Positions 41,891-48,847 are shown, numbered from the stretch's first letter. The stretch is DNA of 64,000 bases from a plasmid (GCF_053078305.1 NZ_CP166875.1); one strand, 5' to 3'. Numbers and translations: made by a program. The notes: generated from the letters alone by a model not told the origin.

Positions 41891-42574
41891 ATGTCCCGTT
41901 TTGTCCTCGGTAACTGCATCGATGTTATGGCCCGTATTCCTGATAACGCCATTGATTTCATACTGACTGACCCGCCGTACCTCGTCGGTTTTCGTGACCG
42001 TTTCGGGCGCACCATCGCCGGCGATAAAACCGATGAATGGCTGCAACCGGCCTGTAATGAAATGTACCGCGTACTCAAAAAAGACGCGCTGATGGTCAGC
42101 TTCTACGGCTGGCACCGTATTGACCGCTTTATGGCGGCCTGGAAACGCGCCGGATTCAGCGTGGCAGGGCACCTCGTGTTCACCAAAAACTACACATCCA
42201 AATCTGCGTATGTCGCGTACCGCCACGAATGCGCTTACATCCTGGCAAAGGGCAGTCCGGCCCGGCCCCGTAACCCTCTGCCGGATGTGCTGGGCTGGAA
42301 ATATTCAGGCAATCGTCATCACCCGACGGAAAAGCCCGTTACCAGCCTGCAACCACTGATTGAGAGCTTCACACATCCGAACGCGATTGTGCTGGACCCG
42401 TTTGCAGGCAGCGGCTCAACCTGCGTGGCCGCCCTCCAGTCCGGACGCCGGTATATCGGTATCGAGCTGCTTGAGCAGTATCACCGTGCCGGACAGCAAC
42501 GTCTGGCTGCCGTACAGCGGGCCATGCAGCAGGGGGCCGCAAATGATGACTGGTTTATGCCGGAGGCTGCGTAA
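41891..42574 (+). CDS. orphan DNA methyltransferase (N6-adenine/N4-cytosine, DPPY type)
   Basis: LTDPPY motif near N-terminus and DPFAGSGST SAM-binding motif near C-terminus; no adjacent endonuclease. Confidence 0.75.
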   Translation: MSRFVLGNCIDVMARIPDNAIDFILTDPPYLVGFRDRFGRTIAGDKTDEWLQPACNEMYRVLKKDALMVSFYGWHRIDRFMAAWKRAGFSVAGHLVFTKNYTSKSAYVAYRHECAYILAKGSPARPRNPLPDVLGWKYSGNRHHPTEKPVTSLQPLIESFTHPNAIVLDPFAGSGSTCVAALQSGRRYIGIELLEQYHRAGQQRLAAVQRAMQQGAANDDWFMPEAA

Positions 42575-42796
42575 ATGAACTATGCCGGACACGAAAAACT
42601 GCGCGCCGAAGTGGCGGAGGTGGCCAATGCCATGTGCGACCTGCGTACAACCATGAATGAGATGGAGCAGCGGTACAGCTTTAATGCCGACACCCTGCCG
42701 GAACGTCTGGTGCGTCAGACGCTGTTTCGCGCAAACCGCCTCCTGATGGAGGCATATACCGAAATTCTGGAACTGGATTCCTGCTTCAAAGATTGA
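42575..42796 (+). CDS. hypothetical protein (73 aa)
   Basis: ORF coupled to upstream methyltransferase stop. Confidence 0.4.
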   Translation: MNYAGHEKLRAEVAEVANAMCDLRTTMNEMEQRYSFNADTLPERLVRQTLFRANRLLMEAYTEILELDSCFKD

Positions 42797-43242
42797 GGGG
42801 AGAGAGTATGTACGGAACATGCGAAACGCTATGCCGGGCGCTGGCAGCAAAGTATCCGGGAGACACTCCGCTGATGCTGGTTATCTGGTCCCCGGAAGAA
42901 ATTCAGGCCCTCGCTGACGGAATGGATATTTCCCTGTCCGATCATGAAATCAGGACTGTCCTGGCCCGCCTGGAGGACATCCCGGAAGACCAGCGGACTG
43001 AATCCGGTATTTCTTCCGGTGCGGCGATGGAGATTATCAAATACGTGAGCGAAAACCGCCAGGTGACCGTCCCTGCTGAACTGCTGGCGTCCCTGATTCA
43101 GACCGCCGAACAGGCACTGTGGAAACGTGAATGGGCCGCCCGGGATCATGGCCTCGCCGTCCCGGAATGCGTCACCCGCCGTCAGGCAGTGATTAATCAG
43201 GCCCGCACCCTGCTGAAAAACAACACACACGAAAACGACTGA
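42793..43242 (+). CDS. hypothetical protein (149 aa)
   Basis: ORF in same-strand gene array. Confidence 0.45.
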
Positions 43243-43286
43243 TGTTATCGCCGCTTTCGGGCGGCGATTCAGGGAGACCATTAATC

Positions 43287-44057
43287 ATGAACAAAACGCT
43301 GAATGCACTGGTTTATCGCCACGCCCGTAACCTGCTGCTGGCGCAGGGCTGGCCGGAAGAGACGGATATTGAACAACTGAATCCGCACTATCCGGGCTGG
43401 ATCAGCATTTACGTGCGGCTGGATGCGCCCCGGCTGGCGACGTTACTTATCAACCGTCACGGCGGCGTACTGCCGCCGCTCCTGGCCTCTGCCATTCAGA
43501 AACTGACCGGAACCGTGGCGGAACTTGTTCTGTCCGGCAGTCAGTGGCAGTCGCTGCCGGTACTTCCGGCAGACGGAACGCAGGTGTCTTTCCCGTATGC
43601 CGGTGAATGGCTGACGGAGGAAGAAATCAGGGCGGTTCTTGATGCGGTGCGCGATGCAGTATGCAGTGTCAGTTGCCGGGTGGCAGAAGATGCGCGGCGT
43701 ATCCGTGCGGCGCTGACCACCACCGGTCAGACGTTGCTGACCCGCCAGACGCGCCGCTTTCGTCTGGTTGTGAAGGAAAGCGATTACCCCTGCTGGCTTG
43801 ATGAAGATGACGAAAATCTGCCCGTGGTGCTCGATGCCATCCTGAACCGGGGAGCACGTTTTTCGGCGGTGGAAATGTATCTGGTCAGCGATTGTATTGA
43901 GCATATCCTGTCCAGTGGGCTGGCCTGCGATGTGCTGCGTATACCGGATGAACCGCCCCGCCGGTGGTTTGACCGTGGTGTTCTGCGGGAAGTTGTCCGG
44001 GAAGCCCGGGCCGAAATCCGCAGCATGGCGGATGCCCTGGCAAAAATCCGGAAATGA
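43287..44057 (+). CDS. hypothetical protein (256 aa)
   Basis: Start taken at [22 protein letters not shown]. Confidence 0.45.
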
Positions 44058-46593: not shown

Positions 46594-46824
46594 ATGACTG
46601 TAAGCATTGTTTCACCTTCCGCAGCGGCTGTAAAGCCCCGCCGTCATCCCCGTTTCAGACGCGAAGACATCCCCGCGCCGGAAATTGACCCCGTGCTGAA
46701 AGCCTTCGGGCGACACATAGCCCGGAGTTTTCACCGGGGGCGTGGTGTACACATCCCCGCCATGAAAAACACGGCTTTCGGGCAGGTGCTCCGCACACTC
46801 GAACTGAAACGCGCTTTTAACTGA
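46594..46824 (+). CDS. hypothetical protein (76 aa)
   Basis: ORF upstream of 453-aa gene. Confidence 0.4.
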   Translation: MTVSIVSPSAAAVKPRRHPRFRREDIPAPEIDPVLKAFGRHIARSFHRGRGVHIPAMKNTAFGQVLRTLELKRAFN

Positions 46825-46875
46825 TGAGGTGAGCCGCCCCGCGAGGGGCGGCAACAGACGGAAGGAGAACATTTT

Positions 46876-48237
46876 ATGACATTAGCAGCAATCACCATGA
46901 CCGCCCCGGAAGCCGCCAGCCCTGTGCAGATGTACCGCGCGACCTACTCACCGGATGACAACAAACTGCGCCTGTATGCCGCGTCACGTCTTGACCCGGA
47001 GACGTATAAAAAAGTACATGATGCCGGTTTCCGCTGGGCACCAAAACAGGCGCTGTTTGTCGCGCCAGCCTGGACACCGGGCCGGGAAGACGTGCTTCTC
47101 TCACTTGCCGGAGAGATTGAGGATGAAGACAGTACGCTCGCTGAACGTCAGGAAGCACGGGCGGAGCGGTTTACCGGATACAGCGGAAAGCGGGCCAGTG
47201 AATCCGCACAGGCACTTGATGAAGTGGAAAGACTGGCCGCGATGATCCCGCCCGGTCAGCCCATTCTTGTGGGGCATCACAGCGAACGCCGCGCCCGTCG
47301 TGATGCGCAGCGTATTGAAAACGGCATGAAACGCGCCGTGATGCTCTTTGAACGTGCGGAATACTGGGAAGAGCGGGCGCGGTCGGCACTGCTTCACGCG
47401 AAGTATAAAGAACGTCCGGACGTTCGCTGGCGTCGTATCAAAAAAATCGAAGCTGATTTGCGCAAGGCGGAAAAGACCATCGCACAGTCGCAGAAATATC
47501 TGACGATGTGGCGGGCTGAATCGCTGGATCTGAATATGGCAAAACTCATCAGCAGTCATGACCATATCAGCGCCTGTTTCCCGCTGGACAGGTATCCGCG
47601 CCCGGCAGAAAAAAGCCAGTATGAAGGAAGTCGATCGTTATGGTCGGCCCTGGATGATGACATCATCACCACGGAGCAGGCCCGCGAAATTGCGATCCGC
47701 TGTCATGAACGGCAGATTCAGCGTCAGCAACGCTGGGTTAACCACTATCAGAACCGCCTGATCTATGAGCGTGCCATGCTGGACGAAAGCGGCGGCGTGG
47801 TTACCCGGACACAGGATTTTGAGCCGGGCGGGCAGGTTTTCAGCCGGGGCGAGTGGCTGACCATCATCCGCGTGAACAAAAGCAACGGGGCGGTGAGTTC
47901 AGTCACAACGCCGAATTACAGTTTTCTCGGGTACAGCGGCACGATGAAAGTGACGCCCGATCGCATCACGGACTACAAAGCACCATCGGCAGAAGAGGCT
48001 GCCGTCGCCAGTCAGGCCGCGAAGCGTCCGCCGGTAGTCAACTATCCGGGGGAAGGTTTCCGGGAAATGACAAAGGCGCAGTGGGCCGCCCTGCCCCGGG
48101 ACTGTAAGGCCGTGCGCAGTGTGGCAGAGACAGAAGACCACGGGGCATACCGCTACCGCCGCACAATGGACAATAATTTCCGCCTGGTGAATGTGTATAT
48201 CACCGACATGAAAATCACGGAAATCCCACAGAAATAA
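46876..48237 (+). CDS. conserved leading-region protein of unknown function (453 aa)
   Basis: Long ORF, charged, no motif recognised. Confidence 0.55.
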   Translation: MTLAAITMTAPEAASPVQMYRATYSPDDNKLRLYAASRLDPETYKKVHDAGFRWAPKQALFVAPAWTPGREDVLLSLAGEIEDEDSTLAERQEARAERFTGYSGKRASESAQALDEVERLAAMIPPGQPILVGHHSERRARRDAQRIENGMKRAVMLFERAEYWEERARSALLHAKYKERPDVRWRRIKKIEADLRKAEKTIAQSQKYLTMWRAESLDLNMAKLISSHDHISACFPLDRYPRPAEKSQYEGSRSLWSALDDDIITTEQAREIAIRCHERQIQRQQRWVNHYQNRLIYERAMLDESGGVVTRTQDFEPGGQVFSRGEWLTIIRVNKSNGAVSSVTTPNYSFLGYSGTMKVTPDRITDYKAPSAEEAAVASQAAKRPPVVNYPGEGFREMTKAQWAALPRDCKAVRSVAETEDHGAYRYRRTMDNNFRLVNVYITDMKITEIPQK

Positions 48238-48283
48238 GGTATATCCCCCCGGGAAATCCCCGGGGGATGACGGAGATAATGAC

Positions 48284-48847
48284 ATGCACAGTCAGTTAAG
48301 AGAACGTATCCGGCTGATGCGCGCAAGGCTGGATAACGCCGCGCCGGTTGCTGAAATCCGGGTTGAATCTCAGCTTTTTGTGACTCCTGCCCCGGTCTGT
48401 GATCGCCTGGTGACGCTGGCGGAAATCAGCAACCGTGATCACATTCTGGAACCCTCTGCCGGCACCGGGGCCATACTGCGGGCGATTCGGGATACCGCGC
48501 CGGAGGCCATGTGTGATGCGGTGGAGATTAACAGCGGGCTGGTCCGGTATCTGCGGGAAAATTTTAACGGTGTCAGGGTACAGTGTGGCGACTTCATGGA
48601 ATGGCTGCCGGTGCAGTATTACAGCCGGATCATTATGAATCCGCCGTTCAGTCACGGGCAGGATATCCGGCATATCCTGCGGGCTTTTTCCCTGTTGCGT
48701 CCGGGGGGCGTTCTGGTTGCTGTCTGTCTCAACGGGCCACGCCAGCAGGAGAAGCTGTTACCGTTTTCTGACGTCCGCGAGGAGCTGCTGCGCGGCACGT
48801 TTGCTTATACCGATGTCCCGACGATGATTATTCGTTTGCGTGCCTGA
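48284..48847 (+). CDS. orphan SAM-dependent methyltransferase (NPPF motif)
   Basis: EPSAGTGAIL and IIMNPPF motifs. Confidence 0.7.
   Translation: MHSQLRERIRLMRARLDNAAPVAEIRVESQLFVTPAPVCDRLVTLAEISNRDHILEPSAGTGAILRAIRDTAPEAMCDAVEINSGLVRYLRENFNGVRVQCGDFMEWLPVQYYSRIIMNPPFSHGQDIRHILRAFSLLRPGGVLVAVCLNGPRQQEKLLPFSDVREELLRGTFAYTDVPTMIIRLRA

What the first reader, a model, noticed from the sequence alone, without database searches (positions are those of the whole stretch)
41891..48847. Leading region carries two orphan DNA methyltransferases, antirestriction-like genes and several unknown ORFs
A DPPY-type methyltransferase (41891-42574) and an NPPF-type methyltransferase (48284-48847) have no partner endonuclease. 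They lie with an ArdB/KlcA-like gene, ssb, psiB and ORFs of unknown function (42575-44057, 46594-48237). Leading regions enter the recipient first and are known to be enriched in anti-defence genes, so the unknown ORFs are reasonable candidates for new inhibitors of restriction, CRISPR or other defences.
Basis: partly seen in the sequence, partly recalled or inferred. Interest (0 to 1): 0.5.

Follow-up and report, generated by a model that had tools for sequence, protein, structure and literature searches.

The report
F-like plasmid leading region, already characterised
This is the well-studied "leading region" of an F-like conjugative plasmid: it carries the already characterised entry methylase M.EcoGIX, the KlcA/ArdB antirestriction gene and their single-strand promoters, and one "unknown ORF" turns out to be the detached front half of the second methyltransferase.

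Summary
Window 41891-48847 is the oriT-distal half of the leading region of an IncF plasmid. Homologous DNA (90-99% identity) is in at least 5000 sequenced plasmids.

- **First methyltransferase (41891-42574).** It is an allele of M.EcoGIX, 226/227 aa identical. The published cloning primers match its two ends exactly. M.EcoGIX is a characterised single-strand-specific m6A "entry" methylase.
- **44473-44898.** This is KlcA/ArdB, the F YfgB homologue.
- **Operon structure.** Three operons each sit behind a long T-strand hairpin. These correspond to the published class 3, class 2 (ssp2) and class 1 (Frpo/ssiD) single-strand promoters.
- **Interpretation.** The idea that leading regions are anti-defence islands and their unknown ORFs are candidates was published by Samuel et al. 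(2024). It has been partly tested in F and pESBL.
- **What I add.** The DUF3560 ORF (46876-48237) and the NPPF methyltransferase (48284-48847) are a split form of one ~670-aa protein. 91 of 125 full-length family representatives carry the methyltransferase fused at the C-terminus. This ORF is therefore most likely the methylase's partner, not a free inhibitor.
- **Cassette.** This operon lies between two Frpo repeats and is absent from F and pESBL.
- **Still unknown.** orf73, two DUF1380 proteins, the YchA/YffB-like protein, orf63 and orf76.

Low interest; already known.

The parts
41556..41885 (-). Class-3 single-strand promoter hairpin on the T-strand, upstream of M.EcoGIX
   Evidence: The minus strand of 41375-41890 folds at -113.9 kcal/mol, z = -8.4 against shuffles. 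Window 41550-41890 is 98.2% identical to the DNA directly upstream of M.EcoGIX in pESBL and 93.8% identical to F. That promoter was defined with a mapped start site in PMC12672017.
41891..42574 (+). M.EcoGIX allele: beta-class N6-adenine DNA methyltransferase (DPPY), single-strand-specific entry methylase
   Evidence: 226/227 aa identical to the pESBL-EA11 methylase. The published M.EcoGIX cloning primers match exactly at 41891-41914 and 42553-42574. Pfam N6_N4_Mtase 1.7e-39.
42575..42796 (+). orf73, an acidic 73-aa protein of unknown function
   Evidence: Matches phrog_4830 (unknown function) at 6e-34. 98.6% identical to the pESBL copy and 75% to F. pI 4.9.
42808..43242 (+). DUF1380 protein, copy a (the ORF is open from TTG at 42793)
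   Evidence: Pfam DUF1380 2.9e-53. 27% identical to copy b, E 2e-8.
43287..44057 (+). YchA/YffB-like 256-aa protein, function unknown (the ORF is open from 43242)
   Evidence: No Pfam match even at E <= 10. Narrow enterobacterial family of 392 hits, most annotated at 256-258 aa. Matches phrog_8919. The AlphaFold model is poor, pLDDT 59.8.
44200..44437 (-). Class-2 single-strand promoter hairpin (ssp2-like), upstream of klcA
   Evidence: The minus strand of 44058-44472 folds at -105.3 kcal/mol, z = -5.4. It is 89% identical to the pESBL and F regions upstream of klcA/yfgB, and 87.5% identical to the pESBL region upstream of ardA. In F, ssp2 acts as both promoter and replication roadblock.
44473..44898 (+). 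KlcA/ArdB antirestriction protein (F YfgB homologue)
   Evidence: Pfam Antirestrict 2.4e-26. PDB 2kmg 8e-18 and 2wj9 2e-8. 97% identical to the F copy.
44945..45364 (+). DUF1380 protein, copy b
   Evidence: Annotated as a DUF1380 family protein in RefSeq homologues. Related to copy a.
45364..45555 (+). orf63, a basic 63-aa protein of unknown function
   Evidence: 95% identical to the F and pESBL copies; pI 10.0. No family hit.
45737..46353 (-). Repeat copy A, containing a class-1 Frpo/ssiD-type single-strand promoter (46020-46353)
   Evidence: Three-copy direct repeat. 80% identical to F ssiD. The T-strand hairpin folds at -98.4 kcal/mol, z = -9.2.
46594..46824 (+). orf76, a very basic 76-aa protein of unknown function; first gene of the cassette
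   Evidence: ORF. Annotated as hypothetical in RefSeq homologues. pI 11.9, and a 46%-identical relative in pESBL downstream of ardA.
46876..48237 (+). DUF3560 protein (453 aa), proposed non-catalytic partner of the downstream methyltransferase
   Evidence: Pfam DUF3560 at residues 89-206, 1.1e-36. 91 of 125 full-length representatives carry an MTase2-like C-terminal domain. The AF2 model has pLDDT 93.3. It has no solved-structure relative. Fused 'Methyltransferase type 11' relatives appear in AFDB.
48284..48847 (+). Minimal NPPF class-I SAM methyltransferase (187 aa, no target-recognition domain); TaqI/EcoKI/DarB-like catalytic core
   Evidence: Motif I at residue 54 and NPPF at residue 119. 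Matches the M.TaqI catalytic domain at 9.4e-6. Matches methyltransferase modules of giant phage proteins at about 1e-31 and mad2 at 1e-20. A GGAG ribosome-binding site lies 9 nt upstream of the start.
49070..49702 (-). Repeat copy B, containing the Frpo/ssiD homologue (49353-49702) upstream of ssb
   Evidence: 87% identical to F ssiD. The hairpin folds at -105.8 kcal/mol, z = -11.7.
49730..53766 (+). ssb, DUF905, ParB-like (652 aa), psiB and psiA: the next leading-region operon, outside the stated interval
   Evidence: NCBIfam: SSB 1.3e-111, PsiB 1.7e-83, PsiA 3.6e-126, ParB domain.
57948..57967 (-). F-type oriT nic-region motif; it defines the minus strand as the transferred strand
   Evidence: Single match with 2 mismatches and none in the shuffles. 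The motif itself was recalled from memory. It lies between the SLT gene (57356-57958, minus strand) and traM (58279-58662).

Best explanation
The interval is the oriT-distal half of the leading region of an F-like (IncF) conjugative plasmid. The window's minus strand is the transferred strand. It enters the recipient 5' first from the nic near 57955, and it is the template for every gene here.

The interval holds three operons. Each sits behind a long imperfect T-strand hairpin that acts as a promoter only while the DNA is single-stranded:
1. Class-3 hairpin -> M.EcoGIX, orf73, DUF1380, YchA-like.
2. Class-2 hairpin (ssp2) -> KlcA/ArdB, DUF1380, orf63.
3. Class-1 Frpo -> orf76, DUF3560 protein, small NPPF methyltransferase.

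The genes are transcribed for a few minutes after entry and fall silent once the complementary strand is made. M.EcoGIX methylates adenines promiscuously (SAY context) on the entering single strand. KlcA/ArdB blocks type I restriction. Together they protect the new plasmid from restriction.

My inference for the third operon: the DUF3560 protein and the 187-aa methyltransferase are two subunits of one enzyme that is a single ~670-aa polypeptide in most relatives. The basic DUF3560 part (pI 9.1) would supply the substrate binding that the TRD-less catalytic core lacks. The substrate is most likely incoming DNA.

Shown here: identities, homologies, hairpins, strand logic and the fusion statistics.
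Shown by others: M.EcoGIX activity, the single-strand promoters and the ssp2/YfgB effect.
Inferred: physical partnership of DUF3560 with MTase2, its DNA substrate, and any role of the small ORFs.
For: - Plasmid identity and frequency: at least 5000 plasmid records match at 90-99% identity, mostly conjugative IncF.
- Strand and order: nic motif, traM and the split traJ, FinP and sok, ssiD x3 and ssiE on the minus strand.
- M.EcoGIX; published function.
- Promoters: hairpin z-scores of -8.4, -5.4, -9.2 and -11.7. Homology to the pESBL and F promoter regions. Published classes and mapped start sites. ssp2 genetics against EcoKI and EcoGIII.
- KlcA.
- Split enzyme: 91 of 125 full-length DUF3560 representatives have a C-terminal MTase2-like domain, and 86 of those keep NPPF. 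Precomputed Pfam gives 'DUF3560, MTS' on single genes. AFDB holds fused relatives of 646-718 aa. An independent split pair with overlapping stop and start, 37% identical at E 4e-30, occurs in a metagenomic element.
- DNA as substrate: the best PDB hit is M.TaqI. PHROG 'DNA methyltransferase' and DarB-like giant proteins match. The polyvalent-protein methylase clade is described as EcoKI/TaqI-like.
Against: - No activity of MTase2 or of the DUF3560 protein has been measured.
- Pfam and NCBIfam score MTase2 best against small RNA/protein methyltransferases (MTS, RrnaAD, Erm, PrmC), though weakly.
- One DUF3560 gene (L012) has no adjacent methyltransferase within its short contig.
- The DUF3560 model matches nothing informative in PDB, only long helices, so DNA binding is not shown.
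- KlcA/ArdB deletions had no measurable effect in two other plasmids.
- traJ in this window is interrupted by an IS66 element, so this copy may not transfer by itself.
Confidence: 0.85

Rival explanations
1. One reading: the unknown ORFs (orf73, the two DUF1380 proteins, YchA-like, orf63, orf76, DUF3560) are free-standing new inhibitors of restriction, CRISPR or other defences. For example, they could be acidic DNA mimics that bind defence proteins.
For: Families matching DUF1380, DUF3560 and names like YdaB/YdfB and YchA/YffA are listed among the large leading-region-enriched families of Samuel et al.; I matched them by name, not by sequence. They are co-transcribed with known antirestriction genes behind single-strand promoters. 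orf73 and both DUF1380 proteins are acidic, pI 4.5-4.9, like Ocr and ArdA.
Against: No hit to any characterised protein in NCBIfam, PHROGs (all 'unknown function') or PADLOC. DUF3560 is tied to a methyltransferase by fusion. The YchA model is too poor to compare. No deletion phenotype has been reported for these ORFs.
Confidence: 0.35
2. The DUF3560 + NPPF methyltransferase pair does not act on DNA. It methylates a host RNA or protein (for example rRNA or a translation factor) to reprogramme the recipient during establishment.
For: The best Pfam and NCBIfam matches are MTS, RrnaAD, Erm, KsgA and PrmC. There is no DNA target-recognition domain. A precedent for host reprogramming by a leading-region protein (YfjB) is listed.
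Against: Those matches are weak (E 1e-3 to 6e-8). Matches to DNA-methyltransferase modules of phage and plasmid polyvalent proteins reach about 1e-31. The best solved structure is M.TaqI. The NPPF motif plus a motif I-before-IV order is typical of EcoKI/TaqI-type adenine DNA methylases.
Confidence: 0.15
3. The two methyltransferases are leftovers of decayed restriction-modification systems, or epigenetic regulators of plasmid genes, with no role during entry.
For: Both lack an endonuclease partner. PADLOC classes MTase1 as 'Type II methyltransferase'.
Against: M.EcoGIX is silent in established cells and induced up to about 500-fold on entry. Its protective effect depends on oriT orientation. 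Gene order, orientation and single-strand promoters are conserved across IncF and IncI1 plasmids.
Confidence: 0.03

Closest known systems
M.EcoGIX of pESBL (IncI1) and its F-plasmid homologue (Fomenkov et al. 2020, PMC7736820)
   Same: 226/227 aa identical. Same DPPY beta-class architecture and same downstream genes (orf73, DUF1380, YchA-like). The upstream class-3 single-strand promoter is 98% identical, and the orientation relative to oriT is the same.
   Different: One substitution (S38F). The host plasmid is IncF, not IncI1. Activity of this allele has not been tested.
KlcA (pBP136, PDB 2kmg) / ArdB (PDB 2wj9) / F YfgB
   Same: Antirestrict domain. 97% identical to the F protein. Sits behind the class-2 (ssp2) hairpin, as in F and pESBL.
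   Different: None of note. [quoted passage not shown]
Frpo/ssiD and the class 1-3 single-strand promoters (Masai & Arai 1997; Wen et al. 2025, PMC12672017)
   Same: Sequence homology (80-98%) and long T-strand hairpins upstream of each operon.
   Different: This plasmid has three class-1 copies. One of them drives a cassette that is absent from F and pESBL.
Anti-defence islands of plasmid leading regions (Samuel et al. 2024, PMC11541004)
   Same: Same concept and, by name, the same gene families (orphan methyltransferases, SSB, PsiB, toxin-antitoxin, DUF-type unknowns) on the T-strand behind Frpo.
   Different: That survey lists DUF3560 as uncharacterised, with a structural match to a 'methyltransferase domain protein'. 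It does not state that DUF3560 and the neighbouring methyltransferase are a split enzyme.
DarB-type adenine methylase module of phage and plasmid polyvalent proteins (Iyer et al. 2017, PMC5512222); M.TaqI catalytic domain
   Same: MTase2 shares the motif I ... NPPF core. It matches these modules at about 1e-31 (PHROGs) and M.TaqI at 9e-6.
   Different: MTase2 is a 187-aa stand-alone core with no LPD36, no helicase and no target-recognition domain. Its partner module is DUF3560, which is essentially absent from phages (one weak hit).

Membership tests
M.EcoGIX-type single-strand-specific beta-class m6A methyltransferase | Beta-class order (motif IV DPPY before motif I) in an N6_N4_Mtase domain | tested here: met
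   DPPY at residue 27 and VLDPFAGSG at residue 167. Pfam PF01555 1.7e-39.
M.EcoGIX-type single-strand-specific beta-class m6A methyltransferase | Sequence identity with the characterised enzyme | tested here: met
   226/227 aa identical. The published cloning primers match both ends exactly.
M.EcoGIX-type single-strand-specific beta-class m6A methyltransferase | Located in the leading region, with the T-strand as template, behind the class-3 single-strand promoter | tested here: met
M.EcoGIX-type single-strand-specific beta-class m6A methyltransferase | Promiscuous SAY m6A methylation of single-stranded DNA; protection from restriction on entry | not testable with these tools
   Known for the pESBL enzyme only.
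KlcA/ArdB antirestriction proteins | Antirestrict (PF03230) domain and similarity to the solved KlcA and ArdB structures | tested here: met
KlcA/ArdB antirestriction proteins | Alleviation of type I restriction in vivo | not testable with these tools
   Literature only.
Frpo/ssi class-1 single-strand promoters | Homology to F ssiD, on the transferred strand, upstream of a leading operon | tested here: met
   Three copies, 80-87% identical, all on the minus strand.
Frpo/ssi class-1 single-strand promoters | Long imperfect hairpin, much more stable than shuffled sequence | tested here: met
   z = -9.2 and -11.7.
Frpo/ssi class-1 single-strand promoters | RNA polymerase initiation on single-stranded DNA | not testable with these tools
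   Shown for F and pESBL.
EcoKI/TaqI-like (gamma-order) N6-adenine DNA methyltransferases, including the DarB-type module | Motif I before motif IV (NPPF/NPPY); significant similarity to the catalytic domain | tested here: met
   M.TaqI 9.4e-6. PHROG methyltransferase modules about 1e-31.
EcoKI/TaqI-like (gamma-order) N6-adenine DNA methyltransferases, including the DarB-type module | A target-recognition domain in the same polypeptide (M.TaqI) or an S subunit (EcoKI) | tested here: not met
   The protein is 187 aa and ends just after the catalytic core. No S-subunit gene is nearby.
EcoKI/TaqI-like (gamma-order) N6-adenine DNA methyltransferases, including the DarB-type module | LPD36 + SF2 helicase dyad (DarB architecture) | tested here: not met
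   No such domains are present. The fused partner in relatives is DUF3560.
EcoKI/TaqI-like (gamma-order) N6-adenine DNA methyltransferases, including the DarB-type module | Methylation of DNA adenine | not testable with these tools
   No experimental data were found for this family.
Type II restriction-modification system | A cognate endonuclease gene next to the methyltransferase | tested here: not met
Known anti-defence inhibitors (ArdA, Ocr, Acr and others), for the small unknown ORFs | Sequence or fold similarity to a characterised inhibitor | tested here: inconclusive
   No informative family hits. The YchA model is too poor to search. No dedicated anti-defence library was available.

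The most novel reading that the evidence does not exclude
The DUF3560 protein and the 187-aa NPPF methyltransferase form a two-subunit 'entry methylase' with no target-recognition domain. This would be mechanistically distinct from M.EcoGIX and would give many IncF plasmids a second, independent chemical shield for incoming DNA. In addition, at least one of the acidic small proteins (orf73, DUF1380) would be a new antirestriction factor.
Probability: 0.35. Interest if true: 0.5.

Novelty: already known. Interest (0 to 1): 0.2.

Why it matters
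Leading-region genes decide whether a resistance plasmid survives its first minutes in a new host, so they are targets for blocking spread and tools for building better conjugative delivery vectors. This locus adds nothing new on that front. Its main players (M.EcoGIX, KlcA/ArdB, the Frpo, ssp2 and class-3 promoters) are published, and the region is present almost unchanged in thousands of plasmids.

The one useful addition is a testable assignment for DUF3560, a family of about 1900 non-redundant members in the Samuel et al. survey. I propose it is the partner of a minimal adenine-methyltransferase core. That turns an anonymous pair of genes into a defined biochemical experiment.

Tried and rejected
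- **YchA-like protein.** There is no Pfam match. The family is narrow and 81-95% identical. AlphaFold gave pLDDT 59.8 and pTM 0.48, so I ran no fold search on it.
- **Defence and phage libraries.** PADLOC, NCBIfam and PHROGs gave nothing informative for orf73, the DUF1380 proteins, YchA, orf63 or orf76.
- **Paralogy tests.** orf73 against orf63 showed no similarity. orf76 against the 100-aa ORF behind Frpo copy C showed none. No conserved small ORF lies upstream of the fused homologues.
- **DUF3560 in phages.** One weak partial hit only. A phage-plasmid protein carrying the MTase2-like domain has an unrelated N-terminus.
- **'Obligatory neighbour' idea.** One DUF3560 gene (L012) has an unrelated upstream gene and no methyltransferase on its short contig. 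The linkage is therefore frequent, not universal.
- **Literature.** Searches for DUF3560, DUF1380 and PF12083 found no functional study.

Full report
**What the window is.**
The 9 kb around the finding matches at least 5000 plasmid records at 90-99% identity. Most are conjugative IncF plasmids of Escherichia, Klebsiella, Salmonella and Shigella. Annotated relatives show the same gene order, between parM/stbA and ssb-psiB-psiA-hok/sok-traM.

In the window itself, Rfam finds sok at 54116-54287 and FinP/traJ 5'UTR at 58753-58862. traM is at 58279-58662. An F-type nic-region motif, recalled from memory, occurs once at 57948-57967 on the minus strand. F ssiE and three F ssiD (Frpo) homologues all lie on the minus strand.

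The minus strand is therefore the transferred strand. It enters 5' first towards lower coordinates. Every leading gene, all on the plus strand, uses it as template. The finding's interval is the oriT-distal half of that leading region.

**Check of the observation.**
All the ORFs exist.
- The DPPY enzyme (41891-42574) is a beta-class N6_N4 DNA methylase.
- The NPPF enzyme (48284-48847) has motif I at residue 54 and NPPF at residue 119. Pfam recognises only a generic class-I SAM methyltransferase.
- No restriction endonuclease is present.
- KlcA/ArdB is at 44473-44898.
- ssb and psiB are real but outside the stated interval.
- The first 'unknown' block is three genes: orf73, DUF1380 and a 256-aa YchA/YffB-like protein.
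- The second 'unknown' block is two genes: orf76 and a 453-aa DUF3560 protein.

**The first methyltransferase is M.EcoGIX.**
pESBL-EA11 carries one annotated DNA methylase in its leading region, followed by the same small genes. The window protein is 226/227 aa identical to it. The M.EcoGIX cloning primers printed in the supplement of Fomenkov et al. 2020 match the window exactly at the first 24 and last 22 bases of the ORF.

That enzyme gives promiscuous m6A in a SAY context on single strands. It is silent in established cells. It protects pESBL from recipient restriction in an oriT-orientation-dependent way.

**Promoters.**
Wen et al. 2025 (PMC12672017) defined three classes of single-strand promoters in pESBL and F, with mapped start sites. 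Class 1 is Frpo/ssi, class 2 lies upstream of klcA and ardA, and class 3 lies upstream of M.EcoGIX.

The window has all three:
- **Class 3.** 41550-41890 is 98% identical to the pESBL class-3 region.
- **Class 2.** 44058-44472 is 89% identical to the klcA-upstream region and 87.5% identical to the ardA-upstream region.
- **Class 1.** The repeats match the F Frpo regions.

As single-stranded DNA the T-strand versions fold into long hairpins far more stable than shuffles: z = -8.4, -5.4, -9.2 and -11.7. In F, the class-2 element (ssp2) is both the promoter of yfgB (ArdB/KlcA) and a replication roadblock. Deleting it lowers transfer into EcoGIII and EcoKI recipients. The window's KlcA is 97% identical to the F protein.

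**The third operon.**
A direct repeat of about 620 nt occurs three times, with spacings of 3333 and 5643 nt. Each copy contains a Frpo homologue. Between copies A and B lie orf76, DUF3560 and the NPPF methyltransferase. F and pESBL have one repeat at this position, directly upstream of ssb, and lack these three genes. The unit therefore behaves as a cassette that could be gained or lost by recombination between Frpo copies. That last point is an inference.

**DUF3560 and MTase2 are a split enzyme.**
A full HMMER scan of 1.84 billion cluster representatives found 3900 relatives of the DUF3560 protein. Most of the best 150 are 630-700 aa long.
- Of 125 representatives that cover at least 350 residues of the query, 91 carry a C-terminal domain matching MTase2 (E 1e-26 to 1e-39). 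86 of those keep NPPF.
- Precomputed Pfam on such genes reads 'DUF3560, MTS'.
- AFDB holds fused relatives of 646-718 aa named 'Methyltransferase type 11'.
- An unrelated metagenomic element has the same split: a 456-aa DUF3560 gene overlapping by 4 nt a 198-aa gene that is 37% identical to MTase2 (E 4e-30), near a Lar restriction-alleviation gene.
- In the window each gene has its own ribosome-binding site.
- One DUF3560 gene had no methyltransferase on its short contig, so the linkage is frequent, not absolute.

**What the pair probably does.**
MTase2's best solved relative is the catalytic domain of M.TaqI (9.4e-6). The alignment covers motif I and NPPY/F, and the protein stops where the M.TaqI recognition domain would begin. 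It matches, at about 1e-31, the methyltransferase modules inside 1259-3431-aa phage proteins, including 'DNA methyltransferase' and DarB-like antirestriction proteins. Iyer et al. describe that clade as EcoKI/TaqI-like adenine DNA methylases of invading elements.

The DUF3560 protein is basic, pI 9.1. Its invariant residues include many arginines and a near-invariant GHHS motif. Its confident model (pLDDT 93.3) has a small N-terminal alpha/beta domain, a long antiparallel helical bundle and beta-rich C-terminal domains. No solved structure resembles it beyond helices.

My best reading is that DUF3560 supplies substrate binding for a catalytic core that has no recognition domain, and that the pair methylates incoming DNA. 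The weaker matches to rRNA and protein methyltransferases keep a non-DNA substrate open.

**The remaining ORFs.**
orf73, both DUF1380 proteins (27% identical to each other), the YchA-like protein, orf63 and orf76 have no informative match in NCBIfam, PHROGs, PADLOC or Pfam. The YchA-like family is narrow, and its model is unreliable. All except orf76 are conserved with F and pESBL. They sit in operons that are induced on entry in pESBL and F. An anti-defence or establishment role is plausible but untested.

**Comparison with the literature and verdict.**
Their supplementary table lists families matching these by name as leading-region-enriched. That table notes a structural match of DUF3560 to a 'methyltransferase domain protein' but does not draw the split-enzyme conclusion. 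I found no functional paper on DUF3560 or DUF1380.

The finding is real, correctly located and sensibly interpreted. It describes a known, heavily sequenced and partly dissected locus. Its novelty is 'already known'. The DUF3560-methyltransferase link is a modest new, testable inference.

Noticed in passing
window 1-3340: A second, inverted and truncated copy of the leading region lies on the minus strand. It holds KlcA (3120-2698, 99% aa), DUF1380 (2648-2232, 100%), orf63 (2229-2041), a ColIb Frpo1-like ssi element (1407-1654), ssb (1337-813, 90%), DUF905 (758-522, 82%) and the start of the ParB-like gene (453-1). It abuts the IncFII repA region at about 3341. Two inverted copies about 41 kb apart could drive inversion. 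No plasmid in the collection covers this junction in one piece.
   Followed up: partly
window 58796-62044: traJ is split by an IS66-family element. The traJ N-terminus is at 58796-59053. IS66 tnpC (59057-60670), tnpB (60701-61051) and tnpA (61048-61473) lie on the minus strand. The traJ C-terminus is at 61646-62044. This copy of the plasmid is probably not self-transmissible, which matters for any conjugation test.
   Followed up: partly
window 45737-46353, 49070-49702, 54713-55345: A direct repeat of about 620 nt occurs in three copies, each containing a Frpo/ssiD homologue. Start-to-start spacings are 3333 and 5643 nt. Copies A and B bracket the orf76-DUF3560-methyltransferase cassette, which F and pESBL lack.
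   Followed up: yes
window 49029-49066: A hexanucleotide tandem repeat, (CTGCTA) about 6.5 times, lies between the second methyltransferase and Frpo copy B. It sits inside short 'hypothetical protein' calls whose length varies between plasmids.
   Followed up: no
window 48246-48267: A GC-rich inverted repeat, CCCCCCGGGAAATCCCCGGGGG, lies between the DUF3560 stop codon and the ribosome-binding site of the methyltransferase. No T-run follows it. It may be a translational or stability element.
   Followed up: no
window 46594-46824; L004 16159-16329: orf76 is very basic (pI 11.9). It has a 46%-identical relative in pESBL just downstream of the ardA region. This suggests a small protein family that recurs in the leading regions of these plasmids.
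   Followed up: no
L014 3658-5621 (JGI metagenome 3300050819): An independent split pair, DUF3560 (456 aa) plus an MTase2-like gene (198 aa), sits in a phage- or element-like run of small genes. The run includes a Lar restriction-alleviation homologue and a T4_Y16D-domain gene.
   Followed up: partly
window 37420-39908: A colicin B-type gene (37420-38982, minus strand; named from the best-matching plasmid) and a 178-aa ORF of unknown function (39372-39908) lie just beyond parM/stbB at the far end of the leading region. NCBIfam gave no hit for either.
   Followed up: no
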